This document shows, piece by piece, positions 23,584 to 56,704 of a stretch of 64,000 bases of DNA (positions are counted from its first letter, which is position 1; every line of letters starts with the position of its first letter). The notes beneath the pieces were generated by a model. It was not told where the DNA came from. It saw nothing but the letters and a program-made list of their open reading frames with translations, and made no database searches. The translations under genes and the position numbers were made by a program. Source of the stretch: Patescibacteria group bacterium (GTDB lineage: Bacteria; Patescibacteriota; Patescibacteriia; Patescibacteriales; UBA12075); NCBI GenBank assembly GCA_034722035.1, contig JAYENK010000029.1:5739-69738 (forward strand), written 5' to 3'.

Positions 23584-23617
23584 CAATTAAAAATTAAGAA
23601 TTAAAAATTAAGAATTA
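23584..23617. repeat. Tandem dimer of the dispersed AT-rich element (AAAAATTAAGAATTA x2) immediately after a stop codon
   Basis: caattaaaaattaagaattaaaaattaagaatta. Near-identical copies at 25321, 33803, 46330, 51989 and 56672. Confidence 0.5.
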
Positions 23618-23690
23618 CGGCTTCGCCCTTTGTCATCCCGGGCGTAGCGTAGCGAAGACCCGGGATCCAGGGAAGAGCAGTAGGAATTAT
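23618..23690. other. GC-rich hairpin element following the AT-repeat (possible terminator or small structured RNA)
   Basis: cggcttcgccctttgtcATCCCGGGcgtagcgtagcgaagaCCCGGGATcc has the nested stems cttcgc/gcgaag and atcccggg/cccgggat. It shares GGCTTCGCC with the rpsL leader element. Confidence 0.3.
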
Positions 23691-23739
23691 GAAAATAGTA
23701 TTGAGTATTTAAAATCAATTAATTTAAGTTTATAAAAAT

Positions 23740-24135
23740 ATGTTAGACAAAAAAGAAGTAAATCAAATTGAATTTAATGGAACAGAATCAGTTAAAAGTT
23801 TTGTTAAAAAGTATAAAAAAGAGTTTAGAAAAGTTTTTTCAAAAGAATTTAAAACACTTGATGGTGAACAAGTTGATTTTTTCGAACTTTTGGACAGAGT
23901 GATTGATGAAGCTAGAAATAGTGGGATTGATGGTAATAAAATTTATAGAATTTTCAAAAAAGATTTTAAGTTGGATTATAAAGATATGGATAAAGTTTTG
24001 TCAGTACTTCAAGAAAAATTAATGCCAGAAGGTGAAGAGAAAAAAAATGCCGATGAAAAACTAGCTAAGCGGCAAGAACACATCAGACAAATTATGGCAA
24101 TGATTCAGGCTGAGCAAGCTAAGTCTAATAATTAG
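23740..24135 (+). CDS. Hypothetical protein (131 aa, K/E-rich)
   Basis: Clean ORF with no recognisable motifs. Confidence 0.4.
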   Translation: MLDKKEVNQIEFNGTESVKSFVKKYKKEFRKVFSKEFKTLDGEQVDFFELLDRVIDEARNSGIDGNKIYRIFKKDFKLDYKDMDKVLSVLQEKLMPEGEEKKNADEKLAKRQEHIRQIMAMIQAEQAKSNN

Positions 24136-24143
24136 AGTTTTAT

Positions 24144-25334
24144 ATGGGGAACAGTATAAAAAATTTAGTCTTTGGCGGTGGTTCTAAGCCAAAAAAAAGC
24201 GCAGCCTCAAAGCTTGTTTTTGGTGATAAAGCTAAGCCCCCAAAAAGCAAGTTTTCTTCTTTGGTTTTTGGTAGTAAGAAAAAAACAGAAAGAACAGGAG
24301 CATCGGCTTTAGTTTTCGGAGACAGCAAAAAGCCACAGCGAACCGGCTGGGCTGCTTTGGCTTTTGGCACAGGTAAAAGCACTAAATATGAGCCGGATGA
24401 TTATGTGAGTGCACAATCGATGCGACCAAAACGACGTTTAAGCAGAGGGGATTATATTGAAGGTAAAAGTCTTCATAAAAGAGTAAGAGATTATAACAGA
24501 AAACATGCTGTTTCTGCTAAAGTTAGAGTTGAGGGAGAAAAGAATTTTAAAAATATAAAAATAAAAGATGGGAAATTGGGTGATATAATGAAGAGCGTGG
24601 TGAAAGAAGAAAGGTTTGTTGGCCGAACAGAAAGCAGTGCGGCCAATAAAATAGCAAATAAAAGAATAAAATATCGAGATAAAGAAGGTAATTTGACCGA
24701 GATTAAATTGGACCGAGCCACTAGAAGAAAACTAGCTAAAATGGCAACAGTTAGAGACTTTGAAAAGCCAAGCGAAGAAATACCGCAAGAAGTTAAAGCA
24801 GCTCGAATTGCCGCTTCTCGCGCTACTGCCGGTATTGCCAGTGAAAGGAGTGGAGACAGGAGTGACCCGCGCGCGAGACTTAGTAAAAATAAAGGTAGGG
24901 CGAGCGATATTGGCGCCAAAACCGTTGAAGAGGTTTCAAAAAAAACCGGGTTTGCACAATTAAGTAAAAGTGACAAAACAAGCGCTGGTTCGGATAAACA
25001 ACATGGTACAGCTTCAATTGAGCAAAGCAAAGAAGCAAGTGGAGTTACGTCTGGTATGGGAGCGAATAAAGAAGTTGGCACAAACGATAGTAAAGTAGAC
25101 GCAGAGCCAAAAAGTAAAAGCAGTGGACAACCGGTCGTGATTAGCGGTGGAGCGGGGATGAGCGAGGCAAGTCATCACGATGATGCTAAAGCGCAAGAAG
25201 AAAGAGTTAACAGTAGTGATGATGAATTTTTTTATTCAGCTAGAAAGGATATGGCATCAAATCGAAATAAAGTTGATTTTGCAAAATTAGTCGAAGAAAG
25301 AAAGGCTATGGACAAAGAATCAATTAAAAATTGA
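24144..25334 (+). CDS. Hypothetical basic low-complexity protein with five N-terminal tandem approximately 14-aa LVFG repeats
   Basis: NLVFGGGSKPKKSA / KLVFGDKAKPPKSK / SLVFGSKKKTERTG / ALVFGDSKKPQRTG / ALAFGTGKSTKYEP. The rest is K/R/S-rich and probably disordered. Confidence 0.45.
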   Translation: MGNSIKNLVFGGGSKPKKSAASKLVFGDKAKPPKSKFSSLVFGSKKKTERTGASALVFGDSKKPQRTGWAALAFGTGKSTKYEPDDYVSAQSMRPKRRLSRGDYIEGKSLHKRVRDYNRKHAVSAKVRVEGEKNFKNIKIKDGKLGDIMKSVVKEERFVGRTESSAANKIANKRIKYRDKEGNLTEIKLDRATRRKLAKMATVRDFEKPSEEIPQEVKAARIAASRATAGIASERSGDRSDPRARLSKNKGRASDIGAKTVEEVSKKTGFAQLSKSDKTSAGSDKQHGTASIEQSKEASGVTSGMGANKEVGTNDSKVDAEPKSKSSGQPVVISGGAGMSEASHHDDAKAQEERVNSSDDEFFYSARKDMASNRNKVDFAKLVEERKAMDKESIKN

Positions 25335-25380
25335 GAATTAAAAATTAATCTAGAGTATTTGGGAAAGAGTTAAATTTTTT

Positions 25381-26367
25381 ATGTTTATAGATATATTATT
25401 GTTTATATTGGGTTTTGTTTTTTTGGTGAAAGGAGCTGGTGTTTTGGTTGATGGGGCATCAGCGATCGCTAAGCATTTTGGTTTGTCGTCTTTTTTTATT
25501 GGGCTCACAATTGTTGCTTTTGGCACATCTCTACCTGAGTTAATTGTTTCGTTGATGGCGAGTTTACAGGGAAGTACCGGAATAGCGTTTGGTAATATTA
25601 TTGGTTCGAATATTTCTAATACTATTTTAATTCTTGGTGTTACGGCCATGGTGGCCCCGCTACTTGTAAAAAAGGCAACTATTAACAAAGAGCTTCCATT
25701 TTCTTTATTGGCAATTTTGGCGCTTGGCTTTTTAGTTAATGATATTTTTATTGATGGTAATGGTCCAGACGCTTTAACCCGAATTGATGGATTGATACTG
25801 CTTTTATTTTTTGCTATTTTTATTTTTTATACTTTTGGTATTAGTAAACCAAAGGAGAGCTTGGTCGAAAAAACAGTTGGCGATATTGGCAATGTTGACG
25901 ATGATGCAAACATGAAGAACACTAATGCAATCGGCATGATTATTGCCGGTTTGGCCGGTCTTTATCTTGGTGGTCGCTGGATTGTTAGTGGTGGTATTTC
26001 TTTTGCCGAGTTTTTTGGAGTTTCTGAGGCTTTAATCGGTTTGACTTTGGTCGCGATTGGCACTTCTTTGCCTGAATTAGTAACATCGGTTGTAGCGGCG
26101 CGTAAAGGCAAAACCGATATTGCGGTTGGTAATATTGTCGGATCAAATGTTTTTAATTTATTATGGGTACTTGGTTTATCTGCGTTATTTAGTCCGATAG
26201 CCTTTGATTTTTATTTGAATGTTGATTTGATTATTTTATTTATTGCCACAATTATATTAATTATTTTGACATATCTTGAAAAAAAGAATATATTATCTAA
26301 GAAAGAAGGAACTGTTTTAGTTTTGTTTTACTTTTTTTATATGGCATTTTTATTTTATCGGGGTTGA
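25381..26367 (+). CDS. Ca2+/cation antiporter (CaCA / YrbG family)
   Basis: Two alpha-repeats, GTSLPELIVSLMAS and GTSLPELVTSVVAA; about 10 TM. Confidence 0.8.
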   Translation: MFIDILLFILGFVFLVKGAGVLVDGASAIAKHFGLSSFFIGLTIVAFGTSLPELIVSLMASLQGSTGIAFGNIIGSNISNTILILGVTAMVAPLLVKKATINKELPFSLLAILALGFLVNDIFIDGNGPDALTRIDGLILLLFFAIFIFYTFGISKPKESLVEKTVGDIGNVDDDANMKNTNAIGMIIAGLAGLYLGGRWIVSGGISFAEFFGVSEALIGLTLVAIGTSLPELVTSVVAARKGKTDIAVGNIVGSNVFNLLWVLGLSALFSPIAFDFYLNVDLIILFIATIILIILTYLEKKNILSKKEGTVLVLFYFFYMAFLFYRG

Positions 26368-26407
26368 TTTGTTATTTTTAAAAATATTTGTTAATATCAA
26401 TGTAAAT

Positions 26408-27226
26408 ATGATTAGAATAAAAACTAAAGAAGAATTAATAATTATTAGAAATGGTGGTAGAAAATTAGCCACTATTTTAAATGAGGTAATTAAAATGGTT
26501 GCGATTGGAGTAAATACGGTCGATTTAGAAGCGCATGCTCTTCTTCGCATGAAAGAAGAGGGGGGTAAGCCGGCTTTTAAGGGTTACTTAATGCCGGATG
26601 GACGCGCTTTTCCCTCAGCCCTGATAACTTGTCTTAATAATGAGGTGGTGCACGCACCGGCTGTACCAGGAAGAATATTAAAAGACGGAGATATAATCAA
26701 AATCGATGTTGGTTTTATTTATCCAGTTCCTAATGAAGCAAATACGCGTAATAATTATCATGAGTCTGGTGGATATTTTACGGATATGAGCAAGACCGTG
26801 ATTGTCGGCCAAGTAGATGAAAAAGTTCAAAAATTAGTTGATACAACCAAAGAAAGTCTTTATGCGGGGGTTGATCGGGTCAAGCCGGGCAATACTTTAA
26901 ATGATATTGGCACTGCGATCCAGAAACATGTGGAAATGCGAGGTTTTTCGGTGGTGCGGGAATTAGTCGGACATGGCGTTGGACACGAATTGCATGAAGC
27001 GCCGCAAGTACCGCATTATGCGATTAAAGGCATGGAGTTTCGTAATGTAAAATTAAAATCAGGTATGGTAATTGCGATTGAACCAATGGTAAATATTGGA
27101 GATTGGCCGGTTAAAACAGGGGCAAACGGTTTTACCATTGAAACCAAAGACGGGAGCTTAAGCGCGCATTTTGAGCATAGTGTTGCGGTTACGGATGATG
27201 GATTTTTGATTTTGACCGAAGTTTAA
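26408..27226 (+). CDS. map: Methionine aminopeptidase type I
   Basis: MIRIKTKEELIIIRNGGRKLA...; the metal ligands D..D..H..E..E are present. Start chosen at the ATG at 26408 rather than the track's 26369. Confidence 0.9.
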   Translation: MIRIKTKEELIIIRNGGRKLATILNEVIKMVAIGVNTVDLEAHALLRMKEEGGKPAFKGYLMPDGRAFPSALITCLNNEVVHAPAVPGRILKDGDIIKIDVGFIYPVPNEANTRNNYHESGGYFTDMSKTVIVGQVDEKVQKLVDTTKESLYAGVDRVKPGNTLNDIGTAIQKHVEMRGFSVVRELVGHGVGHELHEAPQVPHYAIKGMEFRNVKLKSGMVIAIEPMVNIGDWPVKTGANGFTIETKDGSLSAHFEHSVAVTDDGFLILTEV

Positions 27227-27262
27227 AGATAAAGTAATTTAATAGAAATTAATAATAAAATT

Positions 27263-28210
27263 ATGACAACAAAACAAATATATAAGTTAGCGGTGGAGAT
27301 GGGGATGAAAGCTGATCTTCGCGGGCTGGCGAGTACAAAGAAGTATTTGGCAAAAACCAAAGAGGTTTATGAAAAATTAGATGATGAGGCTAAGGGGGAA
27401 TTTGATCAGGAAAAATTTGTAAATCCTTATTCAGATACCAGGATATTGCTTGATAATAATAAAAAAGAGATTAAAAAAGTTTTGGCTGGAATTGATATGG
27501 AGGGGCCGGAGCTTATGTTGGCCAAAGATATGGGGGATGTTGATCTTGTGATTTCGCATCATCCCGCAGGAAAAGCTTTGGCTGATTTGCATTCGGTGAT
27601 GGATTTGCAGGCGCAAGTTTTGGCGGGATACGGTGTGCCGATTAATATTGCCGAATCAGTAATGCGTCCCCGCATCTCTGAAGTTGGTCGCGGTGTTTCA
27701 CCGGCGAACCATAATCGGGCGGTTGACATTGCCCGTGTTCTTAAAATGGATTATATGTGTACGCATACAGTAGCAGATAATTTGGGCGCAAATTTTTTAA
27801 GCACATTAATTAAAAGAAAAAAACCGGAATTTGTCGGAGATTTAATCAAGATTATAAAAACTATTCCAGAGTACAAAGAATCTATTAAAATAAACGCCGG
27901 ACCGAAAATATTCGTTGGTAAAAGCGAAAATTCTTGTGGTAAAATCGTTATTACCGAGTTTACCGGCGGTACTAGCGGTGCTAAGGAAATTTATGAAAAA
28001 ATGGCTCAAGTCGGTATTGGTACAATCGTTGGTATGCACATGGGAGAGGAGCATCGAAAAGAAGCAGAAAAATACCATTTAAATGTCGTTATTGCCGGGC
28101 ACATGGCTAGCGATTCTCTGGGAATGAATTTGTTTTTGGACGAACTTCTACAAAAAAAAGTTAAAGTTGAGGTAATTTCGGGTTTAATTCGAGTGAAAAG
28201 AAAAAAATGA
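27263..28210 (+). CDS. Nif3-family dinuclear metal center protein (YqfO/DUF34)
   Basis: DLVISHHP motif and C-terminal Nif3 features. Confidence 0.7.
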   Translation: MTTKQIYKLAVEMGMKADLRGLASTKKYLAKTKEVYEKLDDEAKGEFDQEKFVNPYSDTRILLDNNKKEIKKVLAGIDMEGPELMLAKDMGDVDLVISHHPAGKALADLHSVMDLQAQVLAGYGVPINIAESVMRPRISEVGRGVSPANHNRAVDIARVLKMDYMCTHTVADNLGANFLSTLIKRKKPEFVGDLIKIIKTIPEYKESIKINAGPKIFVGKSENSCGKIVITEFTGGTSGAKEIYEKMAQVGIGTIVGMHMGEEHRKEAEKYHLNVVIAGHMASDSLGMNLFLDELLQKKVKVEVISGLIRVKRKK

Positions 28211-28274
28211 CAAATAAAGTAAAAAGTAGTATAATATCAATATAAATTGAAATATTATAATTTAAAATAAAACT

Positions 28275-29099
28275 ATGCATAAAGCAAAAATATTAATAAT
28301 AGAAGATGAAGAGGTTTTGGTTCAAGTAATATCAGCGAAGCTGAATAAGGTCGGATACAGCGTTGAAATTGCGGTAAATGGGGAAGAAGGGTTAAAAAAA
28401 ATTAACGATTATCAGCCGGATTTGATTTTATTGGACATTGTAATGCCAAAAGTAAATGGCTATGAAGTACTTGAGCAAATGCAAAAAGAAGGTATTAAAA
28501 TTCCGGTGATAATTATTTCTAATTCTGGGCAAGCGGTTGAAATTGAAAAAGCAGAGACCTTGGGTGCGGTCGATTTTTTGGTCAAAGCCAATTTTAGTCC
28601 GGAAGAAGTTTTGACTAAAGTAAAAAATTATTTAACACAAGCTTTAAATGCAGGCCAGCTAGAAAGTAAAACGGAAAAAAAAAGCGAAATTAAGCCGGAA
28701 ATAAATAAGGAAGTGCAACAATTGGGTGTAAAAATATTTTTAGTAGAGGATGATTCATTTTTGAGTGATATTTGCGGCAAAAAATTAATTAATGAAGGAT
28801 ATTCGGTTTACACGGCAGTCGATGGCAAAGAAGCAGTCAACGGCATTGCGCAAGCCAAACCAGACTTGGTTTTGTTGGATATTATTTTGCCGTCAATGGA
28901 CGGTTTTCAGGTGCTTTCGGCTATTCGGTTGAATCAAGACGAAAAAGTTTCTAATGTACCTATAATAATGCTTTCTAATCTGGGACAAGAAGAAGATGTA
29001 AAAAAAGCTATGGATGCAGGCGCCAACGACTATCTAATAAAAGCGCATTTTACAACCGAAGATATTATCAATAAAATAAAAGAGATATTAGCCAAATAG
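28275..29099 (+). CDS. Response regulator with two tandem receiver domains and no output domain
   Basis: The first receiver has ILIIEDE...LLDIVMPKVNG. The second has IFLVEDD...LLDIILPSMDG. Confidence 0.85.
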   Translation: MHKAKILIIEDEEVLVQVISAKLNKVGYSVEIAVNGEEGLKKINDYQPDLILLDIVMPKVNGYEVLEQMQKEGIKIPVIIISNSGQAVEIEKAETLGAVDFLVKANFSPEEVLTKVKNYLTQALNAGQLESKTEKKSEIKPEINKEVQQLGVKIFLVEDDSFLSDICGKKLINEGYSVYTAVDGKEAVNGIAQAKPDLVLLDIILPSMDGFQVLSAIRLNQDEKVSNVPIIMLSNLGQEEDVKKAMDAGANDYLIKAHFTTEDIINKIKEILAK

Positions 29100-29123
29100 T
29101 ATTTTGGATAATATTGAAAAAAT

Positions 29124-29154
29124 AACAGGTATAAGTTGGTATACTTGTTTTTTT
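29124..29154 (+). terminator. Rho-independent terminator after the first dual-receiver gene
   Basis: aacaggtata-agttg-gtatacttgtt + T7, followed by an extended -10 tggtataat for the histidine kinase. Confidence 0.45.
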
Positions 29155-29176
29155 ATTTTGTGGTATAATATATTTA

Positions 29177-31084: not shown

Positions 31085-31093
31085 TTTAAAAAT

Positions 31094-31978: not shown

Positions 31979-33208
31979 ATGATTAATGATAAAAAAATTG
32001 AAATATTATCTCCAGCCGGGAACATGGAAAAAATGAAAACCGCTTTATCCTTTGGCGCGGACGCGGTTTATGCCGGAATTCCGGATTTTTCTTTGCGGGC
32101 CAGAATTAATGATTTTGATATAAATAGAATTAAAGAGGCAACAGAATATTGTCATAAATTTAACAAAAAAATATATATTACAATAAATATTTTTGCGCAC
32201 AATAAGCATATTGATAAATTGTCAGAATATATTAAAGATTTAAAAAAAATTAAAGTAGACGCACTAATTGTCTCTGATCCAGGAATTTTGATTTTAGTGA
32301 AAGAAGTATGGCCGGATGCGAAAATTCATCTTTCAACTCAGGCAAATTGTACAAACGCATCTGCAGTAAAATTTTGGCTGGCTCAAGGCGTTAAAAGAAT
32401 TATTTTAGGGAGAGAAGTGACTCTGGAGGAAATTAAGGAAATTCACAAAGCAGTGCCTAAAATAGAACTTGAATATTTTGTGCATGGCGCAATGTGTATG
32501 GCTTATTCCGGGCGTTGTTTTTTGTCCAAAGGATTTGTTGACCGCTCGGCTAATCTAGGAGACTGCGTTCAACCCTGTCGCTGGCGATATAAAATAAAAG
32601 CCGAAAATTATAAAGAAGAATTCGAAATTGTGGAAGAAGAACATGGGTCTTATATTTTGAATTCTAAGGATTTGTGTCTACTTGAACATTTACAGGATTT
32701 AGCCAAAGCAGGGATAAGTAGTTTTAAGATTGAAGGACGAGCTAAGAGTGTTTATTATCAGGCAATTGTCGCTGGAATATATTCCAGTGCGAGTAAAAAA
32801 AATATTAGTTTTTATAAAAAAGAGCTTGAAACAAAATTAGTGCATCGGGGATACGCCAAGGGATTTTTATTGGGCGAAAAAGCTGAACAAAACATAGAAA
32901 GTTCGCATAATAAATGCTCTTGGGAGTTTTGCGGACAAGTATATTCAATTAAAAATGAAAAATTAAAAATTAAGGATTATGATAATAAAAATCTTGTTTT
33001 AATTAAAGTTCATAATTCTTTGAAGGTGGGGGACAGGGTAGAGATGGTTCGGCCGAAATATGATATAATAAAAATGAAAGTTGATAAAATTTGGGATGCC
33101 GAAATGAAAGAAGAATTACAAGAAGCGCATGGGGGACAAAATAAAAAAGTGTTTTTGGAAGTTGAAGAAAAAGTACCGGAATACAGTGTAATAAGAAGAA
33201 AAATTTAA
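31979..33208 (+). CDS. Peptidase U32 family protein (collagenase-like; RNA-modification-associated family)
   Basis: IEILSPAGNMEKMKTALSFGADAVYAG... is the U32 N-terminal TIM-barrel signature. Confidence 0.8.
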   Translation: MINDKKIEILSPAGNMEKMKTALSFGADAVYAGIPDFSLRARINDFDINRIKEATEYCHKFNKKIYITINIFAHNKHIDKLSEYIKDLKKIKVDALIVSDPGILILVKEVWPDAKIHLSTQANCTNASAVKFWLAQGVKRIILGREVTLEEIKEIHKAVPKIELEYFVHGAMCMAYSGRCFLSKGFVDRSANLGDCVQPCRWRYKIKAENYKEEFEIVEEEHGSYILNSKDLCLLEHLQDLAKAGISSFKIEGRAKSVYYQAIVAGIYSSASKKNISFYKKELETKLVHRGYAKGFLLGEKAEQNIESSHNKCSWEFCGQVYSIKNEKLKIKDYDNKNLVLIKVHNSLKVGDRVEMVRPKYDIIKMKVDKIWDAEMKEELQEAHGGQNKKVFLEVEEKVPEYSVIRRKI

Positions 33209-33219: not shown

Positions 33220-33801
33220 ATGCTTTCATATTTAAAAGGAACAATCCAAAATAAAGGTAAAGGCTACGTGATCGTTTTAACCGGTGATATCGGCTATAAA
33301 ATTTATGTGAATGACAGTATTTATGCGGAATTAGGCATTAATCAAGCCATTGAGTTTTATATTTTCCATAACGTAAAAGAAGATGCTTCTGATCTTTATG
33401 GTTTTTATCATATGGACCAGTTGGAAATGTTTGAGCTTCTGCTTTCGATTAGCGGCGTTGGTCCCAAGTCGGCTATGGCAACACTCGGAATTGCCAGTAT
33501 AGAGGACATCAAAGAATCAATAAGCCGAGGTGATTCATCTTTATTGATTAAAGTTTCCGGTATTGGCAAAAAGACGGCGGAGCGGATTGTTTTGGAGCTT
33601 AGGGATAAGATTATTCAGATAGCAGATGACAGACAACAGGCAACAGACAACAAAAGCATTCAAGCCTCGTCTGATGAAATTGACGCATTAATGGCACTTG
33701 GTTATTCGTTGCAACAGGCGAGAGAGGCGCTTAAGAAAATTGATGTTTCGATTAAGGATAGCGGGCAGAGGATTAAGGAGGCGCTTAAGGGGTTGGGGTA
33801 G
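33220..33801 (+). CDS. ruvA: Holliday junction branch-migration protein RuvA
   Basis: LSYLKGTI...; HhH motifs LLSISGVGPKSAMATL and KVSGIGKKTAERI; C-terminal domain III. Confidence 0.85.
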   Translation: MLSYLKGTIQNKGKGYVIVLTGDIGYKIYVNDSIYAELGINQAIEFYIFHNVKEDASDLYGFYHMDQLEMFELLLSISGVGPKSAMATLGIASIEDIKESISRGDSSLLIKVSGIGKKTAERIVLELRDKIIQIADDRQQATDNKSIQASSDEIDALMALGYSLQQAREALKKIDVSIKDSGQRIKEALKGLG

Positions 33802-33802: not shown

Positions 33803-33835
33803 CAATTAAAAATTAGGAATTAAAAATTAAGAATG
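33803..33835. repeat. Tandem AT-rich element dimer overlapping the start codon of the FemAB gene
   Basis: caattaaaaattaggaattaaaaattaagaATG. Confidence 0.45.
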
Positions 33836-34792
33836 CGGGTAGTCGAAGTTAGTAGGGCAGAATTAAATAGTTTTACAGCATCACAGAAACGTTCTCAGTT
33901 TTTGCAGTCTTGGGAATGGGGGGAGTTTCAGGAGAGAACGGGGAAAAAAGTGATTCGATTGGGGTTTGAAGATGATGATAAATTGTTTTTTGCGTTTACT
34001 TTAATTAAAAACAATTTACCCTTAGGGATGAATTATTTTTATTCCCCAAGAGTTGGTGTCGAAAGTTTAAACAAGGAACAAGTAGAGCTTGTCTTTAAGG
34101 AAATAAAAAAGATTGCAAAAAAAGAAAAAATATTATTTTTTAGACTAGATTTAAATAAAAATTTAAAATTTAAAATTTTAAATTTTAAATTTAAAAAGAC
34201 TATTCATGTTCAACCTGAAAAAACTTTAATTTTAAATATATCTAGATCAGGGGAGGAGCTACTCCAAAGCATGCATAAAAAAACCAGATATAATATCAGA
34301 CTAGCTGAAAAGAAGGGCGTGACAGTGAGGCAGGCGAGCGAAGCAGATTTTAATGTTTGGTGGAATATTATGAAGGAAACCAAAGAAAGAGATAATTTTC
34401 GTTTGTATTCTAAGGAGCATTATAAGAAAATGCTAAAAATTAATATTATCAAATTATATATCGCTGAATTTCAGGAGAAAATAATTGCTGGAAACATAAT
34501 CGCATCTTTTGGTGACATGGCAACTTATGTTCATGGCGCGTCGTCTAATAAATATCGTAATGTGATGGCACCGTATTTATTGCAATGGGAAGCAATTAAA
34601 ATAGCAAAAGAGCAGGGTTGTAAATGCTATGATTTTTATGGAATTGATGAAGATAAATGGCCGGGAGTAACACGCTTTAAACAGGGGTTTTCCGGAGAAG
34701 AAATAATTTATCCCGGAACTTTTGATTTGATTTATTATGATTTTTATTATAATTTATATCAATTATTAAGAAAAATTAGAAGAATGGTGTAA
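33833..34792 (+). CDS. FemAB-family peptidoglycan aminoacyl-tRNA transferase (FemX-like)
   Basis: FLQSWEWGEF, YYSPRVG, KTRYNIRLAEKKGV, YGAS... are motifs of the PF02388 family. Confidence 0.7.
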   Translation: MRVVEVSRAELNSFTASQKRSQFLQSWEWGEFQERTGKKVIRLGFEDDDKLFFAFTLIKNNLPLGMNYFYSPRVGVESLNKEQVELVFKEIKKIAKKEKILFFRLDLNKNLKFKILNFKFKKTIHVQPEKTLILNISRSGEELLQSMHKKTRYNIRLAEKKGVTVRQASEADFNVWWNIMKETKERDNFRLYSKEHYKKMLKINIIKLYIAEFQEKIIAGNIIASFGDMATYVHGASSNKYRNVMAPYLLQWEAIKIAKEQGCKCYDFYGIDEDKWPGVTRFKQGFSGEEIIYPGTFDLIYYDFYYNLYQLLRKIRRMV

Positions 34793-46329: not shown

Positions 46330-46362
46330 AATTAAGAATTAAAAATTAAAAATTAAGAATTA
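46330..46362. repeat. AT-rich dispersed element dimer in the 49-bp gap between the DUF4258 and DUF2283 genes
   Basis: caattaagaattaaaaattaaaaattaagaatta. Confidence 0.45.
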
Positions 46363-47402: not shown

Positions 47403-47418
47403 AAGTTATTTGATGACT

Positions 47419-49164: not shown

Positions 49165-49171
49165 AGATTTT

Positions 49172-49500: not shown

Positions 49501-49520
49501 GAAATGTGATTTTTAATTTT

Positions 49521-50940: not shown

Positions 50941-50990
50941 GAAATAAATGATAATGCGAATTTATGCAAATATAGCGAATTCGAATTATG
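50941..50990. promoter_or_regulatory. Second CGAAT-motif cluster with the identical 17-mer, in the divergent promoter region between dsbA-por and leuS
   Basis: atgcgaatttatgcaaatatagcgaattcgaattatgcgaatatttt. Confidence 0.35.
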
Positions 50991-51192
50991 CGAATATTTT
51001 ATGAAAAAAAATATTTTAATTATATTTTTATTTTTTTAGTAGCTTCGCCTGTTTTTGCTGAAGAGAGAATTAAAGATTACACGATTGATATTAATTTTAA
51101 TTATAATAGGTATATTTTTTAAAACAAAAAAATGCGTATTGATTATTTTTGCGTTTCTGCTAAGATAAGGAAAGATATAAAAAATAAAAACA

Positions 51193-53598
51193 ATGGAAAA
51201 ATATAATTATAATAAAACAGAAAAAAAGTGGAGTCAAAAATGGGTAGAAGACAAGACTTTTACACCTGACTTAAAAAACGCGAAAGATCCTTACTACGCG
51301 CTTTTTATGTTTCCTTATCCGAGCGCTGAAGGGCTGCATATTGGGAATTTTTATGCTTTTGTTTGTACAGACGTAATGGCAAAATACAAAAAACTACAAG
51401 GTAAGGACGTGTTTGAGCCTTTTGGCTTTGATGCTTTTGGCATGCACTTGGAAAATTATGCCCTAAAAATAGGGGAGAGGCCACAAGCAGTAGAGGCGCG
51501 TACTACCAAAAATTTTCGTAAGCAAGCACAGTCGGCCGGACTTTCTTGTGATTATACTCGTGAAGTTGACACAACCAAGCCGGAGTATTACAAATGGACC
51601 CAGTGGCTTTTTACTAAACTTTTTGAAAAAGATTTGGCTTATCAGAAAGAAGCTTTGCTCAATTGGTGTCCATCTTGCCAGACGGTTTTGGCGGACGAAC
51701 AGATAGAAGACGGGATTTGTGAAAGGTGCAATGCTCAGCCGGAGAAAAAAACAATGAAACAATGGTTTTTTCGTATTACGGCTTACGCGGATAAAATGCT
51801 TGAAGGACTTGAGGACATGGATTGGTCGGAAATTACAAAAGCAGCGCAGAAGAATTGGATTGGTAAAAGTGAAGGAGCGGAAGTTGAATTTAGAATCAAG
51901 AATTTAGAATCAAGAATTAAAGTGTTCACTACTCGTCCGGATACTTTGTTTGGCGTGACTTATATGGTGTTGGCGACGGAGCATTCTTTAATTAAAAATT
52001 TAAAATTAAGAATTAAAAATTATCAAGAAGTTCAAGCATATATTAAAAAAACTGAAGCTAAGTCAGAGTTAGAACGAACAGAAAACAAAGAGAAGACCGG
52101 AGTAAAATTAGAGGGGGTGTATGCGGTTAATCCGGTAAACAATGAAAAAATATCGATTTGGATTGCGGATTATGTAATGATGGGTTATGGGACGGGCGCG
52201 ATTATGGCAGTGCCGGCGCATGATGAGCGTGATTATGAGTTTGCGAAAAAGTTTGATTTGCCCATTGTCGAAGTGTTGAGTGGGGGAAATATTGAAAAAG
52301 AGGCATATATTGGGGACGGCAATCATATTAACTCCGGTTTTTTGAATGGTTTAAATAAAGAGAACGCAATTAAAAAAATTACTGATTGGCTTGAAGAAAA
52401 AAAATTTGGTAAAAAAGAAGTAAATTATCGTTTGCGTGATTGGTGTATTTCTCGGCAACGCTATTGGGGACCGCCGGTACCGGTTGTGTATTGTGAGAAA
52501 TGTGGAATTTTATCAGTGCCAGAAAAGGATTTGCCGGTAATGTTGCCCGAAACTCAAGAATGGGAGCCATCCGGCGATGGACGAGGACCGCTTGCCAAGG
52601 TGGACGAATTTATGAATACAAAATGTCCTAAATGCGGTGAGCCAGCTGTACGCGAAGCTGACGTAATGGACAATTTTCTTGATTCGGCTTGGTATTTTTT
52701 TCGTTATATTTCGCCAAGTAATTCTGAGGCGATATTTGATGCTAAGCTAGGTAAGAAGTGGCTGCCGGTTGATTTGTATGTTGGCGGCAATGAACATGCA
52801 GTTCTTCATTTGATGTATACCCGTTTTATTACAATGTTTTTGCACGATTTGGATTTGATTGATTTTAATAATCCTTTTAAAAAGTTTCGGGCGAATGGTA
52901 TGATTTTAAAAGACGGCAAGAAAATGAGCAAGTCTAAGGGAAACGTGATTAGTCCGGAGGAGTATGGTAAAAAAGTCGGTTATGACGCGCTTAAAACTTA
53001 TTTACTCTTTCTTGGCCCTTTGAGTGAAGACAGGTCTTTTACCGATACCGGCGTTCAAGGCACAAAAAGATGGGTGGAGAAAGTTTATAAATTAAAGGAA
53101 AAAGTATTGGATAAATATGATGACAGCGAAGAAGCGGCCAGAAAGTTGCACCAGACAATTAAAGTGGTTGGGGAAAATTTTGAAGAGCAAAAATATAACA
53201 CAGCCGTGGCCAGGTTAATGGAGCTTACCAATGTATTTGTTCAAGCTAAAAATATATCAAAAGAAAACTGGAAAAAATATTTAGCGATTATAGCTCCCTT
53301 TACTCCGGCTTTGGCCGAGGAGCTTTGGCGCGAATTTGGAAATAAGACTTCAATTTTTAGCGGTAGGAATTGGCCGGATTATGATAAAAAATCAATCAAA
53401 GAAGAAACAGTTGGAATAGTCGTGCAAATTAATGGCAAAGTGCGGGATAAGCTGAAATTAAATGCAGATATTAGCGAGGCGGACGCAATAAAAAAAGCCA
53501 AAGAATCAGAAAAAGTGAAAAAATGGCTTTTTGATAAAGAGATTATAAAAGAAATTTATGTAAAAGGGAAGTTGGTTAGTTTGGCGGTTAAAGATTAG
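51193..53598 (+). CDS. leuS: Leucyl-tRNA synthetase
   Basis: 801 aa; HIGN (HIGH) and KMSKS present; carries an in-frame tandem 14-bp repeat and a copy of the AT-rich element in the editing-domain region. Confidence 0.95.
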   Translation: MEKYNYNKTEKKWSQKWVEDKTFTPDLKNAKDPYYALFMFPYPSAEGLHIGNFYAFVCTDVMAKYKKLQGKDVFEPFGFDAFGMHLENYALKIGERPQAVEARTTKNFRKQAQSAGLSCDYTREVDTTKPEYYKWTQWLFTKLFEKDLAYQKEALLNWCPSCQTVLADEQIEDGICERCNAQPEKKTMKQWFFRITAYADKMLEGLEDMDWSEITKAAQKNWIGKSEGAEVEFRIKNLESRIKVFTTRPDTLFGVTYMVLATEHSLIKNLKLRIKNYQEVQAYIKKTEAKSELERTENKEKTGVKLEGVYAVNPVNNEKISIWIADYVMMGYGTGAIMAVPAHDERDYEFAKKFDLPIVEVLSGGNIEKEAYIGDGNHINSGFLNGLNKENAIKKITDWLEEKKFGKKEVNYRLRDWCISRQRYWGPPVPVVYCEKCGILSVPEKDLPVMLPETQEWEPSGDGRGPLAKVDEFMNTKCPKCGEPAVREADVMDNFLDSAWYFFRYISPSNSEAIFDAKLGKKWLPVDLYVGGNEHAVLHLMYTRFITMFLHDLDLIDFNNPFKKFRANGMILKDGKKMSKSKGNVISPEEYGKKVGYDALKTYLLFLGPLSEDRSFTDTGVQGTKRWVEKVYKLKEKVLDKYDDSEEAARKLHQTIKVVGENFEEQKYNTAVARLMELTNVFVQAKNISKENWKKYLAIIAPFTPALAEELWREFGNKTSIFSGRNWPDYDKKSIKEETVGIVVQINGKVRDKLKLNADISEADAIKKAKESEKVKKWLFDKEIIKEIYVKGKLVSLAVKD

Positions 53599-54565
53599 TT
53601 AAATACCATTCTCCGTTTAATTCTTTTTCAATATAAAATTCAACCGGCACCGAGTAGCCACCCATTGAAAAATAGACATTATTTTTATAAGTAAGTTTGT
53701 CGTCAATTTCTGTTGCTAGAGTGGATCCGGAAAGGATATTACCGAGAACAAGCCTGCTATCGTCATTGAAAGACTCAAAAATATTTCTAATAGCTATTTC
53801 CATGTCTGGTCTGAAATATTTTATTGCTTCGTCCGGGTCATTATTTCTGATGGTGCTGGCTGCATTTTTTATAACATTATATTTTCCCGTAGAAAGAACG
53901 GGAGTATCCGATACGTCCGGTTTGGGGAAAATGTTAGGTTCATTTGGGATAATATGAGTTGAAATCTTATTAATATTAATATTATTTATGCCCAGGCCAA
54001 ATTTACGCATAATTTTGAAAGCAACCGAGGGGCGGGACAAGTAGTATCGTTTTAAATTATCCGGACTCACATACCAGGCCTCACCATTTTGCTCAATTTG
54101 CAGGAATATTTTTCCTGTATTTTTTTTGACAAAGTTTTCATCAATTAATATTTTGTCCGCACCAATTGGATTATAATTATTAATTATTTCATCATAATCA
54201 CTGTGTCCATCATTATCACTGTCCGGATTATCTTTGTCTGTAAGCAGTGTCTCTTCCAGCCGGTTTCCAAGTCCGTCATTGTCATTATCTTTATCGATGT
54301 CTGCTATAACGCCAATAGGGATTTTACTTAGATTATCATTGGTGATGCCGATGCCAAGTTTACGCATAGTACTAAAAGCGTCACTAGGCTTGTTTAGATA
54401 ATATTTTTTATAATTTTCCGGGTTAACGTACCAAGCTTCACCGTTATTTTCGATTTGAAGCAAAATTTTTCCCGCTAGTTTTTGTCCTAGATTGATATCT
54501 GCTTTGACTGGCAAGATAATTAAAAATAGAGCTAAAGCTAAGAATAATCCTTTTTTTATATGCAT
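53588..54565 (-). CDS. Secreted protein with a duplicated approximately 45-aa module and two EF-hand/dockerin-like calcium-binding loops
   Basis: Signal peptide. Repeats AGKILLQIENNGEAWYVNPENYKKYYLNKPSDAFSTMRKLGIGIT and TGKIFLQIEQNGEAWYVSPDNLKRYYLSRPSVAFKIMRKFGLGIN. Loops DNDNDGLGNRLE and DSDNDGHSDYDE. Confidence 0.55.
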   Translation of the reverse strand: MHIKKGLFLALALFLIILPVKADINLGQKLAGKILLQIENNGEAWYVNPENYKKYYLNKPSDAFSTMRKLGIGITNDNLSKIPIGVIADIDKDNDNDGLGNRLEETLLTDKDNPDSDNDGHSDYDEIINNYNPIGADKILIDENFVKKNTGKIFLQIEQNGEAWYVSPDNLKRYYLSRPSVAFKIMRKFGLGINNININKISTHIIPNEPNIFPKPDVSDTPVLSTGKYNVIKNAASTIRNNDPDEAIKYFRPDMEIAIRNIFESFNDDSRLVLGNILSGSTLATEIDDKLTYKNNVYFSMGGYSVPVEFYIEKELNGEWYLTNL

Positions 54566-54605
54566 AAATTTGTTATAATGAATATACTTATATTATAGCA
54601 AAAAT

Positions 54606-55142
54606 ATGGTAATTAAGAAAAAATATAAATTATCGACAATAATTATTTTGTTGTTATTATTTTTCTTTTGGGGCGGGAGCGCAATTAATAAAAAATTGGA
54701 ATGGAAAATAGTTGAGGATTTAATTGCCGGCAGCGCATTCCCGGTTGAGATGGGAAATATTAATTCTACGGTGGCTCAATGTGTTCCGTCATGCTATGAT
54801 CCAATAGCTTCTTGTTGTGCTCCTCCATGTTCAGAAGTGGTGCCTTCTAGAGGCGATTATGAAGCAACTTGCCCCCTGTATTCGTTTGTAAGCGGACAGT
54901 CAACCGGCGGGACAGGAGGAAATACGGCGATATTTTCCAATATTGCGATGGGACAAGCCGGCCTAACATCGGGTGGACAGTTTATTTACGGTGGAACTAC
55001 TAATAATATGTCTTTGGGCGAGCAAAACGCAGTCTTAGCTTCAGTGGATGGTTGCTATAATTGTTACGCAAAAAATAAAAGTAATTGGAAGCAAAAATTT
55101 GCCGTGGTTGCCGACATGTTTATGGCGATGTTCAAGGATTAA
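54606..55142 (+). CDS. Membrane-anchored Cys-rich secreted hypothetical protein
   Basis: N-terminal TM, 9 Cys, G/T-rich stretch. Confidence 0.45.
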   Translation: MVIKKKYKLSTIIILLLLFFFWGGSAINKKLEWKIVEDLIAGSAFPVEMGNINSTVAQCVPSCYDPIASCCAPPCSEVVPSRGDYEATCPLYSFVSGQSTGGTGGNTAIFSNIAMGQAGLTSGGQFIYGGTTNNMSLGEQNAVLASVDGCYNCYAKNKSNWKQKFAVVADMFMAMFKD

Positions 55143-55190
55143 AGCTTGATTGATTTTTTAGTTTATTTTGCTATAATTAAATAAAATAAT

Positions 55191-55463
55191 ATGATAAAAA
55201 ATACAAGAAAAATTAAAAAACAAGAATTTTCTGTTTTGATTGAAAAAGATGAAAGCGGTTTTTATTTTGCTAAAGTGCCAACAATTAAAGGCTGTCATAC
55301 TCAAGCTAAATCATTGTCAGAATTGTATAAACGCTTAGATGAAGCAGTATTACTTTGTTTGGAAGTGCAAGAAAAAGATAAAGAATATTTAATTAGCAAG
55401 AATGAGTTTGTTGGTTTTCAAAAAATAGAAGTGAAAATACCTCCAAAATTAAAATATGCCTAA
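55191..55463 (+). CDS. hicB: HicB-family antitoxin
   Basis: FSVLIEKDESGFYFAKVPTIKGCHTQAKSLSELYKRLDEAVLLCLE. Confidence 0.7.
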   Translation: MIKNTRKIKKQEFSVLIEKDESGFYFAKVPTIKGCHTQAKSLSELYKRLDEAVLLCLEVQEKDKEYLISKNEFVGFQKIEVKIPPKLKYA

Positions 55464-55692
55464 ACTAACACTGATAAGCGGGGAAAAAATGCTTAAATTA
55501 CTTGCTTTGTGCGATTTTGAGATTGTTAGAATTAAAGGAAGTCATCATTTTTTAAAAAATAAAACCAAAAGAAGTATGACGGTAGTGCCAGTTCATGGAA
55601 ATGAAGAATTAGGTGTTGGTTTGTTAATTAGCATATTGTCAGATGTGGATTTGTCCAGAAAAGAATATGAAAAATTACGGCGAAAAATTTAA
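55456..55692 (+). CDS. hicA: HicA-family toxin (mRNA interferase)
   Basis: KLLALCDFEIVRIKGSHHFLKNKTKRSMTVVPVHGNEELGVGLLISIL. Has an 8-bp overlap with hicB. Confidence 0.75.
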   Translation: MPKLTLISGEKMLKLLALCDFEIVRIKGSHHFLKNKTKRSMTVVPVHGNEELGVGLLISILSDVDLSRKEYEKLRRKI

Positions 55693-55698
55693 TAAAAA

Positions 55699-55725
55699 AT
55701 CATCCTCATGTAGGATGATTTTTTA
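55699..55725 (+). terminator. Rho-independent terminator after hicA
   Basis: atcatcctc-atg-taggatgat + T6. Confidence 0.5.
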
Positions 55726-55801
55726 CGTGGACCCAAAAAGAGGCCACCGACTGGTACGGAGTTCCATGATTAACTAAATATATAATAACTGCCTATATTA
55801 A

Positions 55802-56626
55802 ATGTCAAGTTTGATCCAAAAAACAATTAATATTTCCAAAAAATATAATATCAGCCCAAAACGTAGCAAGGGGCAGAATTTTTTGATTAATGAAAGTGTT
55901 TATAATCAAATAGTTGAAGTGGCTGATTTGCAATACGAAGATATTGTTCTAGAAGTTGGGCCAGGGCTCGGATTTTTAACAGAAAAATTAGCAGAAAAAG
56001 TTAACAGAGTAGTTGCGGTAGAGCTGGATGATGGATTGACTGAGGTATTGCGGGCGAGATTAAAGGAGAAAGAGATTGGTAATGTTGAGGTAATTAATGA
56101 AGATGTACTTAAAATTTTCAATTTTCAATTTTCAATTTTCAATTTTAAAATTATCGCGAATTTGCCGTATAATATTACTTCGATTTTTCTTAGAAAAGTT
56201 TTGGAGTTGGAAAATAAGCCTAAAAGCTTAACTTTGATGTTGCAAAAAGAAGTTGCGAAGCGGATTACGGCAGAGCCGGGAAAGATGAGTAAATTGACGG
56301 TTTCGGTTCAGTTTTACGCGGACGCAGAGATTCTTTTTAATGTACCTAAGACAGATTTTTGGCCTGAGCCCAAGGTGGACAGTGCAGTAATTGAGTTAAA
56401 AATAAAAAGTAAAAAGTATAAAGTAGATGATAAGAGGTTTTTTCAACTGGTGCGGATTGGCTTTAGCGCAAGGCGGAAGAAACTTAAGAATAATTTGGCG
56501 AGCGGTTATCAGATAAAGGCGGAAGAAGCGGGAGAAAGACTAAAATTAGCTAATTTAAATCCAGATTGTCGCGCTCAAGATTTAGGCGTACAAGATTGGA
56601 TAAAATTACTTGGTTATTTTAGTTGA
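55802..56626 (+). CDS. rsmA: 16S rRNA (adenine1518/1519-N6)-dimethyltransferase
   Basis: KGQNFLINESV..., SAM motif VLEVGPGLGFLT, NLPYNITS. Contains an (AATTTTC)x4 microsatellite in-frame (FNFQFSIFNF). Confidence 0.9.
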   Translation: MSSLIQKTINISKKYNISPKRSKGQNFLINESVYNQIVEVADLQYEDIVLEVGPGLGFLTEKLAEKVNRVVAVELDDGLTEVLRARLKEKEIGNVEVINEDVLKIFNFQFSIFNFKIIANLPYNITSIFLRKVLELENKPKSLTLMLQKEVAKRITAEPGKMSKLTVSVQFYADAEILFNVPKTDFWPEPKVDSAVIELKIKSKKYKVDDKRFFQLVRIGFSARRKKLKNNLASGYQIKAEEAGERLKLANLNPDCRAQDLGVQDWIKLLGYFS

Positions 56627-56704
56627 TTTATGTTATAATTAACATAAGCTGTTGATTACTTTACCAGATAAATAATTTTTAATTCTTAATTAAATCTCTC
56701 CCCC

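What the first reader, a model, noticed from the sequence alone, without database searches (positions are those of the whole stretch)
23584..56696. Dispersed AT-rich approximately 15-19-bp element (AATTAAAAATTAAGAATTA) in tandem dimers at gene junctions and inside coding regions
Near-identical copies occur at six sites. Copies at 23584-23617 and 25321-25350 abut stop codons (after the ABC permease and after the LVFG protein). The copy at 33803-33835 overlaps the femX start codon. The copy at 46330-46362 lies between the DUF4258 and DUF2283 genes. The copy at 51989-52024 is in-frame inside leuS, encoding LIKNLKLRIKN. The copy at 56672-56696 is reverse-oriented and lies just upstream of the 56705 gene. 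They almost always come as dimers of an AAAAATTAAGAATTA unit. This many copies of a specific 15-19-mer in 64 kb is far above chance even for an AT-rich genome. Possible roles are a genome-specific REP/MITE-like element, a protein-binding site (nucleoid protein or transcription-termination factor), or a recombination hotspot. An element that can sit in intergenic DNA and be tolerated in-frame in an aminoacyl-tRNA synthetase is unusual.
Basis: seen in the sequence. Interest (0 to 1): 0.55.

Follow-up and report, generated by a model that had tools for sequence, protein, structure and literature searches.

The report
Tandem 7-base repeat arrays (AATTAAR)
The "15-19-bp element" is a roughly 33-base block of about 4.7 head-to-tail copies of the 7-base unit AATTAAR, a member of the known but unexplained class of bacterial tandem heptanucleotide repeats, sitting at gene junctions and in variable protein loops of a Patescibacteria (CPR) genome.

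Summary
The unit is the heptamer AATTAAR, repeated about 4.7 times (about 33 bp). There are seven sites, not six.

- Five sites fill short spacers between genes.
- Two lie in frame in variable loops of leuS and a U32 peptidase, with the in-frame TAA changed to TTA or GAA.
- The leuS copy is not an insertion. Orthologues have the same length there.
- The closest relative carries a different perfect heptamer array (AATCTCA) at exactly that position.
- The same "same loop, different heptamer" pattern holds for a second leuS loop, rsmA, femX and U32.

Period 7 is the only tandem period in excess, both here and in related loci. AATTAAR arrays are not specific to this genome. They occur at gene boundaries in at least 120 genomes of many phyla, including genomes of 55-69% GC.

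The best reading is a family of tandem heptanucleotide repeats. They are made and homogenised by out-of-register copying. They are kept only where sequence is free to vary. In this genome, which lacks Shine-Dalgarno sequences, they double as unstructured A/U-rich spacers with stop codons in every frame.

Shared flanks and a shared reading frame among copies leave room for an active copying mechanism. Verdict: a new member of a known, unexplained kind, of moderate interest.

The parts
23585..23617 (+). AATTAAR array, 4.7 units (site 1). It starts 2 nt after the TAG stop of the FtsX/MacB permease gene (22374-23582) and is followed directly by a GC-rich hairpin.
25322..25348 (+). AATTAAR array, 3.9 units (site 2). 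The TGA at 25332-25334 inside unit 2 is the stop of the 396-aa ORF. The next start codon is 33 nt downstream.
32947..32979 (+). It lies in frame in the U32 peptidase gene, residues 330-341 (SIKNEKLKIKDY), in the variable linker after WEFCGQV. The in-frame TAA is changed to GAA.
33804..33836 (+). AATTAAR array (site 4). It fills the whole ruvA-femX spacer and holds the femX ATG (33833) in its last unit.
46330..46362 (+). AATTAAR array (site 5), antisense to the two minus-strand genes it separates. It lies 9 nt upstream of the DUF2283 start. The orthologous spacer in L125 is 18 nt long and has no array.
51990..52022 (+). AATTAAR array (site 6), in frame in the leuS editing domain, residues 266-277 (LIKNLKLRIKNY). 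The in-frame TAA is changed to TTA. It is not an insertion.
56673..56691 (-). Short AATTAAR array, 2.7 units (site 7), in reverse orientation. It lies in the leader of the 56705 gene, 13 nt before the ATG.
51886..51918 (+). Second leuS heptamer array (AATTTAG/AATCAAG, 14-nt unit x2.4), residues 232-242. L125 has (GATTGCC)x3 in the same five-unit slot. L123 and L124 have GC-rich palindromic insertions there.
56109..56146 (+). (AATTTTC)x4.9 perfect array in rsmA, residues 104-115. L125 has (AATTGGA)x4 in the same loop.
34153..34196 (+). (AAAATTT)x5.6 array in femX, residues 107-122. L131, L138 and L140 carry AATTTCA, CTACAAG and AATTTGG arrays in the same loop.
56397..56425 (+). (TAAAAAG)x4.3 array in rsmA, residues 199-208, in a variable segment.
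33629..33652 (+). (ACAGACA)x3.4 array in the ruvA linker between domains II and III, residues 137-145.

Best explanation
The copies are a family of tandem heptanucleotide repeats, microsatellite-like arrays of period 7 with about 4.7 units of AATTAAR.

**Inferred mechanism**
- Arrays are created and kept homogeneous by out-of-register copying at a 7-nt (or 14-nt) offset during replication or repair, by slipped-strand mispairing or template switching followed by correction.
- They survive only where sequence is free to vary. These places are the short, AT-rich spacers between co-directional genes and the variable surface loops or linkers of proteins.
- Inside genes the one TAA that falls in frame is removed by a point mutation, and loop length is preserved.

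**Role in spacers (inferred).** The arrays are harmless and probably useful. This genome has no Shine-Dalgarno sequences. An AATTAAR array gives a weakly structured A/U-rich leader in front of the next start codon and puts TAA in all three frames on both strands.

**What is shown:** the periodicity, the excess of period 7, the locations, the absence of a length change in orthologues, lineage-specific units at orthologous sites, and the lack of Shine-Dalgarno sequences.

**What is inferred:** the copying mechanism and any benefit.
For: **Periodicity and location in the window**
- TRF finds period 7 at all sites.
- Exact tandem runs exist only for periods 7 and 14. There are none for periods 4-6 and 8-13, and almost none in 30 shuffles.
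- Five of seven arrays lie in the 8% of the window that is intergenic.

**Period 7 in other loci**
- 19 arrays against at most 6 for any other period in 625 kb of U32 loci.
- 204 arrays against at most 14 in 848 kb of loci from many phyla, with a median of 4.7 copies.

**Arrays in genes replace sequence rather than adding it**
- LeuRS aligns to the T. thermophilus enzyme with a 1-residue gap, and to its closest relatives with none.
- Orthologous positions carry other heptamers: AATCTCA in L122 and GATTGCC in L125 for leuS; AATTGGA for rsmA; AATTTCA, CTACAAG and AATTTGG for femX; NNCGART with a 21-nt superperiod for U32.
- In leuS region 1, both lineages have exactly five units. The edge units are fixed by conserved codons, and the inner units copy the edges.

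**Spacer properties**
- Only 2 of 55 genes have a Shine-Dalgarno-like motif.
- Arrays fold weakly: -0.5 to -4.7 kcal/mol, against -7.0 +/- 4.0 for random windows.
- Each frame of the array contains TAA.

**Other genomes and literature**
- 112 of 120 arrays are intergenic, sit tight against starts and stops, and show no orientation bias, 26 to 27.
- The literature describes the same class: PMC4679880, PMC4692102 and PMC2700814.
Against: - Four of six copies share a 5' TC flank (P = 2.5e-5). Sites 1, 2 and 4 share a 14-nt A/G pattern, and five of five copies share one frame. This looks like copying of one discrete roughly 35-nt element between sites rather than independent local slippage.
- Perfect arrays inside essential genes (37 nt in L122 leuS, 34 nt in rsmA) cannot be reached by viable single 7-nt steps, so something other than simple slippage must act.
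- The same AATTAAR unit in 55-69% GC genomes of other phyla is not explained by local composition.
- No strain-level copy-number data could be obtained. The only other assembly comes from the same sample.
- Intergenic arrays are not conserved at orthologous junctions, which argues against an essential function but does not prove a neutral origin.
Confidence: 0.55

Rival explanations
1. A selected intercistronic RNA element. The array acts on the polycistronic mRNA as a translational insulator and loading pad: it stops ribosomes in any frame and offers an unstructured A/U-rich standby site (for example for protein S1) for initiation without Shine-Dalgarno pairing. Alternatively it acts as an RNase processing site.
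For: - All five intergenic copies lie between co-directional genes, and four of them lie within 33 nt of the next start codon.
- The genome has no Shine-Dalgarno sequences.
- TAA falls in every frame, and the arrays fold weakly.
- In other genomes the arrays abut start codons, and about 18 flanking ORFs end on an array TAA.
- They sit between ribosomal-protein genes in a Chloroflexia MAG.
- MacGregor proposed the same role for TAACTGA repeats (PMC4679880).
Against: - The arrays are not conserved at the same junctions in relatives.
- Both orientations occur equally often.
- 21 of 81 arrays flanked by ORFs on both sides lie between convergent genes, where no start codon follows.
- The same arrays occur inside genes.
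- Many heptamer units in the same genomes contain no stop codon.
Confidence: 0.2
2. A discrete mobile or copy-pasted element. A roughly 35-nt unit (TC + 4.7 heptamers) is spread between sites by an unknown enzyme or by ectopic gene conversion, with the array itself as its target or product.
For: - The copies share a TC flank, an AATTA end, a 14-nt superperiod and one reading frame.
- Unit families are partly genome-specific: AATTAAR at 7 sites here, AATTACA at 2 sites plus a degenerate copy at the ruvA-femX junction in L140, and NNCGART at 2 sites in L147.
- Small GC-rich palindromic elements occupy the same hot spots or adjoin or interrupt arrays.
Against: - There are no terminal inverted repeats and no target-site duplication.
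- No transposase or other gene family is enriched next to arrays in 125 flanking ORFs.
- Copies in genes replace sequence without changing its length.
- In leuS region 1 the inner units are copies of the local edge units.
Confidence: 0.12
3. A cooperative binding site on DNA for a protein that reads contiguous 7-bp heptads, as the omega repressor of plasmid pSM19035 does (own knowledge). The protein would be a nucleoid protein or a global regulator.
For: - The heptads are contiguous, occur in direct and inverted orientation without strand bias, and are concentrated in intergenic DNA.
- One unit dominates in each genome (PMC4679880).
Against: - Dozens of different units coexist in the same neighbourhoods.
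- In this window the arrays lie inside operons rather than at promoters, and promoter-like matches are at background level.
- No partner protein was identified.
Confidence: 0.08
4. Phase-variable contingency repeats, or a chance product of AT-rich composition.
For: Tandem short repeats are the classical substrate of phase variation. The genome is AT-rich.
Against: - None of 100 shuffles reaches the observed counts.
- The host genes are essential housekeeping genes (leuS, rsmA, ruvA), where a 7-nt slip would be lethal.
- The intergenic positions give no on/off logic.
- The same array occurs in high-GC genomes.
Confidence: 0.03

Closest known systems
TAACTGA heptamer direct repeats of marine Beggiatoaceae, Cyanobacteria and Bacteroidetes (MacGregor 2015, PMC4679880)
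   Same: Two to six tandem 7-nt units, mostly intergenic and directly upstream of start codons or overlapping stop codons. Stop codons fall in all three frames. Few Shine-Dalgarno sequences nearby. Present in ribosomal-protein operons. Occasionally in genes at the periphery of proteins. Mixed with other heptamers. Scattered phylogenetic distribution.
   Different: The unit is AATTAAR, which carries TAA on both strands, so orientation does not matter. The host is a CPR bacterium. Here the arrays also lie in internal variable loops of essential enzymes, and orthologous loops carry other heptamers.
Four- and five-heptanucleotide elements of Geobacter metallireducens (GGACCGG x4 at 49 sites; MTYCTGA x5 at 15 sites; PMC2700814)
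   Same: [quoted passage not shown]
   Different: They are GC-rich and were interpreted as regulatory RNA or regulator-binding sites. No comparison of orthologous sites was reported.
GGGAATC / GGGGATT heptamer repeats of Xanthomonas and Nostoc (Rehm 2015, PMC4692102) and Mrazek's long simple sequence repeats
   Same: About 26-nt heptamer arrays, about 90% intergenic, within 0-50 bp of ORF ends, on both strands. Period 7 is specifically over-represented. The polymerase-slippage hypothesis was proposed for them.
   Different: Those units are G-rich and form quadruplexes. AATTAAR cannot.
Rickettsia palindromic elements (in-frame selfish DNA in genes; own knowledge)
   Same: Repeated DNA tolerated in frame in conserved protein genes, at surface-exposed sites.
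   Different: RPEs are 100-150-bp palindromic insertions that add residues. These arrays are 33 bp, not palindromic, and replace rather than add sequence. The GC-rich palindromic insertions in leuS of L123 and L124 resemble RPEs more closely.
Heptad operator arrays of the omega repressor of pSM19035 (own knowledge)
   Same: Contiguous 7-bp units in direct or inverted orientation.
   Different: Those are specific operator or centromere sites on plasmids with a known ribbon-helix-helix binding protein. No binder or promoter association was found here.

Membership tests
Tandem heptanucleotide repeats (long simple sequence repeats of period 7) | Head-to-tail copies of a 7-nt unit, three or more copies | tested here: met
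   TRF gives period 7 with 2.7-4.7 copies at all seven sites; sequences read directly.
Tandem heptanucleotide repeats (long simple sequence repeats of period 7) | Period 7 over-represented relative to other periods and to shuffled sequence | tested here: met
   Window: only periods 7 and 14 give runs, and almost none appear in shuffles. Related loci: 19 against at most 6. Loci from many phyla: 204 against at most 14.
Tandem heptanucleotide repeats (long simple sequence repeats of period 7) | Mostly intergenic and close to ORF ends | tested here: met
   Five of seven in 8% of the window, P = 7e-5. 112 of 120 in other genomes.
Tandem heptanucleotide repeats (long simple sequence repeats of period 7) | Copy number varies between strains in steps of 7 nt (slippage) | not testable with these tools
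   The only other assembly of this organism comes from the same sample. The nearest relative has 75% amino-acid identity in LeuRS.
REP / BIME elements | Imperfect palindrome forming a stable hairpin | tested here: not met
   The array is a direct repeat. RNA MFE is -0.5 to -4.7 kcal/mol for 39-53 nt, weaker than random windows.
REP / BIME elements | Associated RAYT (REP-associated tyrosine transposase) | not tested
   No transposase-like Pfam family appeared among 125 ORFs flanking arrays in other genomes. The rest of this genome was not available.
MITE | Terminal inverted repeats and target-site duplication | tested here: not met
   The flanks of all copies were read directly. There are no inverted termini and no duplicated flank.
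Rickettsia-type in-frame palindromic insertions | The element adds residues relative to orthologues | tested here: not met
   leuS has the same length as P0002 and P0025 and is 1 residue longer than most others. There is a 1-residue gap against the T. thermophilus enzyme.
Heptad operator arrays (omega-repressor type) | Contiguous 7-bp heptads located at promoters or centromere sites | tested here: inconclusive
   Contiguity is met. In the window, promoter-like matches are at background level and none stands out at an array.
Heptad operator arrays (omega-repressor type) | A cognate DNA-binding protein | not testable with these tools
   No candidate could be linked to the arrays. No Pfam family is enriched next to them.
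Phase-variable contingency loci | The repeat is placed so that unit gain or loss switches a gene on or off | tested here: not met
   The arrays lie in essential housekeeping genes or in spacers where a 7-nt change alters only the spacing.

The most novel reading that the evidence does not exclude
Bacteria of several phyla may possess an active, perhaps enzyme- or template-driven process that overwrites tolerant DNA with four to five tandem heptamers, of which AATTAAR is one widely shared unit. The targets would be spacers between genes and variable loops of even essential proteins, and segment length would be kept. This would explain four observations:
- orthologous loops carry different perfect arrays in different lineages;
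- copies within a genome share flanks and reading frame;
- the unit recurs in high-GC genomes;
- small GC-rich palindromic elements occupy the same hot spots.

It would be a new source of variation in protein loops and spacers, distinct from diversity-generating retroelements and from ordinary slippage.
Probability: 0.15. Interest if true: 0.8.

Novelty: new member of a known kind. Interest (0 to 1): 0.5.

Why it matters
Tandem heptanucleotide repeats have been noted as the commonest class of long simple repeats in bacteria since 2007. As of the 2015 papers I read, no mechanism or function had been established.

- This window extends the class to the Candidate Phyla Radiation.
- It offers a clean comparative handle. 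The same loops of leuS, rsmA, femX and U32, and the same gene junctions, carry different heptamer arrays in different lineages with no change in length.
- That pattern constrains how such arrays arise. It also means part of the "variable loop" sequence of conserved proteins in these organisms is repeat-derived.
- There are practical consequences. These arrays break short-read assemblies. They create apparent low-complexity peptides such as IKNLKLRIKN in annotations. They can supply stop codons and start contexts in genomes without Shine-Dalgarno sequences.

Tried and rejected
1. **Chance or composition.** Rejected by the shuffles.
2. **Known RNA families or tRNA-linked elements.** Rfam at gathering threshold and ARAGORN found nothing in the window.
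3. **leuS insertion.** Rejected by the alignments.
4. **Link to 'four-helix-bundle / 23S rRNA IVS protein' genes (PF05635).** This was my own recollection. Among 125 ORFs flanking arrays in other genomes no family is enriched and PF05635 does not appear. It turned up once near leuS in L124. Tandem heptamers upstream of the Coxiella IVS ORF are documented, but this is not a general link.
5. **Promoter or terminator role.** Consensus scans are at background level and nothing stands out at the arrays.
6. **REP or MITE.** No palindrome, terminal inverted repeats or target duplication.
7. **Specificity control.** I scanned viral contigs with AATTAAR x4 and with a composition-matched heptamer (ATATAAR x4). 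I cannot say that AATTAAR is commoner across bacteria than other AT-rich heptamers.
8. **Strain-level variation.** Exact-protein look-ups returned only contigs from one sample.
9. **TAG preference of the stops before sites 1 and 4.** TAG is 13 of 55 stops, so two of two is not significant.
10. **Elhai's 2008 paper on small dispersed repeats nested in cyanobacterial heptamer arrays.** It could not be retrieved, so that parallel rests on my memory only.


Full report
**1. The observation**

The 15-mer AAAAATTAAGAATTA with up to 2 mismatches has 23 matches in the window against 3.5 expected. The 19-mer with up to 3 mismatches has 21 against 0.77. No shuffle reaches either count.

Reading the sites shows that the matches overlap in steps of 7. 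Each site is one block of tandem AATTAAR heptamers, usually 33 nt, or 4.7 units. TRF reports period 7 at every site, and period 14 at sites 1 and 4.

There are seven sites:
- 23585-23617
- 25322-25348
- 32947-32979 (new)
- 33804-33836
- 46330-46362
- 51990-52022
- 56673-56691 (reverse orientation, short)

**2. Context**

The window comes from a Patescibacteria (CPR) MAG related to Falkowbacteria and Moranbacteria. Its LeuRS is identical to an NCBI 'Patescibacteria group bacterium' protein on an 85-kb contig, and the next relative has 75% identity.

Pfam identifies the neighbouring genes: the FtsX/MacB permease, Na/Ca exchanger, U32 peptidase, RuvA, FemAB, DUF2283, LeuRS and RsmA.

- Five arrays are intergenic and two are inside genes. 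The window is 92% coding, so this is a strong intergenic excess (P = 7e-5).
- Site 1 begins 2 nt after a TAG stop.
- Site 2 supplies the TGA stop of its ORF.
- Site 4 begins 2 nt after the ruvA TAG and contains the femX ATG.
- Sites 5 and 7 are antisense to the genes and lie 9 and 13 nt upstream of start codons.

Because 7 is not a multiple of 3, successive TAA triplets fall in successive frames. The reverse strand (TTAATT) behaves the same way, so an array carries stops in all six frames.

The two copies inside genes have exactly the in-frame TAA changed, to GAA in U32 and to TTA in leuS.

All five copies that follow or lie within a + strand ORF are in one frame: (S/P/L)-IKN-x-(E/K)LKIKN. This has P of about 0.012. 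Four of six full copies share a 5' TC (P = 2.5e-5).

**3. Not an insertion: the same sites carry other heptamers in relatives**

LeuRS aligns with the T. thermophilus enzyme across the array with a single-residue gap. It aligns with its closest relatives with no gap.

At the nucleotide level the picture is as follows.

| Gene and position | This window | Relatives |
|---|---|---|
| leuS region 2 | AATTAAR array | L122 (75% identity): perfect (AATCTCA)x5.3, same position and phase |
| leuS region 1 | AATTTAG/AATCAAG array (51886-51918) | L125 (syntenic Falkowbacteria genome): (GATTGCC)x3 |
| rsmA variable loop | (AATTTTC)x4.9 | L125: (AATTGGA)x4 |
| femX loop | AAAATTT | L131 AATTTCA; L138 CTACAAG; L140 AATTTGG with a GC-rich insert |
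| U32 linker after WEFCGQV | AATTAAR | L147: about 170 nt of NNCGART heptamers with a 21-nt superperiod |
| ruvA-femX junction | AATTAAR (site 4) | L140: degenerate array of its own AATTACA-type unit |
| spacer at site 5 | 49 nt with array | L125: 18 nt without array |

In leuS region 1 both genomes have exactly five units. These lie between conserved codons that fix the edge units, and the inner units copy those edges. L123 and L124 carry in-frame GC-rich palindromic insertions at that spot.

The lasting features are therefore the permissive sites. The arrays that occupy them are lineage-specific and do not change segment length.

**4. Period 7 is special**

- In the window, exact tandem runs of 12 or more exist only for periods 7 and 14. 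Periods 4-6 and 8-13 give none, and shuffles give almost none.
- In 625 kb around U32 homologues there are 19 period-7 arrays against 0-6 for any other period.
- In 848 kb of loci from many phyla there are 204 against at most 14. These comprise 62 different units with a median of 4.7 copies.

**5. Not genome-specific**

The hits include Bacteroidales, Hymenobacter, Flavobacterium, Nostoc, Planctomycetota, Chloroflexia, Ignavibacteria, CPR lineages and a methanogen. They include isolate genomes and loci of 55-69% GC.

- 112 of 120 arrays are intergenic.
- They hug start and stop codons.
- About 18 flanking ORFs end on an array TAA.
- Orientation relative to the genes is 26 to 27.
- Many form inverted pairs around a GC-rich loop. 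In a Chloroflexia MAG this occurs in successive spacers of the ribosomal-protein operon.
- Many sit beside arrays of other heptamers.
- No Pfam family is enriched among 125 flanking ORFs.

I could not run a composition-matched control on that collection. The control on viral contigs saturated. The claim is therefore that AATTAAR arrays are widespread, not that they are the commonest heptamer.

**6. Literature**

- Mrazek (2007, as cited in PMC4679880 and PMC4692102) found heptanucleotide repeats to be the most abundant long simple repeats in bacteria and suggested polymerase slippage.
- MacGregor described 169 sets of TAACTGA repeats in a Beggiatoa genome. They lie just upstream of starts or overlapping stops, carry stops in all frames, occur in ribosomal-protein operons, and are also found in Cyanobacteria and Bacteroidetes.
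- Geobacter metallireducens has 49 four-heptamer elements within and between genes.
- Xanthomonas and Nostoc have roughly 26-nt GGGNATC arrays that are about 90% intergenic and lie near ORF ends.
- Searches for CPR-specific or AATTAAG-specific reports found nothing.

**7. Mechanism**

*Shown*
- The elements are period-7 tandem arrays.
- They are confined to spacers and variable loops.
- They preserve length.
- The units are lineage-specific.
- This genome lacks Shine-Dalgarno sequences (2 of 55 genes). Its start codons are preceded by AT-rich sequence that often resembles the array.
- The arrays fold weakly as RNA.
- Promoter and terminator scans show nothing at the arrays.

*Inferred*
- Arrays arise and are homogenised by out-of-register copying.
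- Selection filters where they persist.
- In spacers they are compatible with, and perhaps favoured as, all-frame stop barriers and A/U-rich leaders.

*Not explained by simple slippage*
- Perfect arrays in essential genes, which cannot be reached through viable 7-nt steps.
- The shared TC flank, 14-nt pattern and frame of sites 1, 2 and 4.
- The recurrence of AATTAAR in high-GC genomes.

These points keep a copy-paste or templated mechanism alive.

**8. Verdict**

The finding is real and clearly non-random. It is a new member, in the CPR, of the known but unexplained class of tandem heptanucleotide repeats. The most interesting by-product is the pattern of 'same loop or junction, different heptamer, same length' across lineages.

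Noticed in passing
window 23618-23685: A GC-rich hairpin (RNA MFE -27.6 kcal/mol) directly abuts the site-1 array. It contains GTCATCCCGGGCGTAGCGTAGCGAAGACCCGGGATCC and is unique in the window. It resembles in style the GC-rich palindromic insertions found in frame in leuS of relatives and the GC-rich inserts that interrupt arrays in other genomes.
   Followed up: partly
L123 10694-10765; L124 about 1709-1790; L140 about 7296-7330: GC-rich palindromic elements (GTCAT...ATGAC type) are inserted in frame in leuS and femX of relatives, at exactly the loops where this genome has heptamer arrays. They give peptides such as VIARSKATRQSRN...SARDDM. This is reminiscent of Rickettsia palindromic elements.
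   Followed up: partly
window, all 55 gene starts: The genome essentially lacks Shine-Dalgarno sequences (2 of 55 genes have a GGAG/AGGA-type motif). Start codons are preceded by very AT-rich sequence.
   Followed up: yes
window 57426-64000: One open reading frame of at least 2195 codons runs off the end of the window, so the ORF tool does not list it. It is orthologous in position to a giant gene of over 2900 residues in L125.
   Followed up: partly
L207 (Logan contig SRR26901930_93952), end at 3615: The short-read contig carrying ruvA ends 33 nt after the gene, at or just past the end of the site-4 array. This is consistent with such arrays breaking assemblies, as MacGregor also noted.
   Followed up: no
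window 56627-56650 and L125 14994-15015: A conserved extended -10-like motif (TTATGTTATAATT) lies just downstream of rsmA in both genomes. It suggests a promoter for the next gene, with the site-7 array in its leader.
   Followed up: no
L057 690-5760 (Chloroflexia MAG, 58% GC): Several successive spacers of the ribosomal-protein operon (before rpsC, rplN, rpsN and rplF) hold an inverted pair of (AATTAAG)4-5 arrays around a similar 16-19-nt GC-rich loop. Together they form a palindromic element of about 85 nt that occurs in either orientation.
   Followed up: partly
L147 about 4070-4245: The U32 peptidase gene of a relative contains about 24 in-frame heptamers (NNCGART) with a 21-nt superperiod, encoding GEFRMSN/GEFRVSS repeats. 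A second array of the same unit type lies about 450 nt upstream in the same gene.
   Followed up: partly
window and relatives: Many units share an AATT core (AATT+NNN: AAA, AAG, TTC, GGA, TTG, TCA, ACA, TGG, ATG, ACG), and arrays tend to start with AATT and end with AATTA. In the loci from many phyla, 145 of 204 arrays have AATT in their unit, but that sample was selected for AATTAAR.
   Followed up: partly
L124 4905-5285: A PF05635 (23S rRNA intervening-sequence protein) gene lies two genes downstream of leuS in one relative. No general link to the arrays was found.
   Followed up: yes
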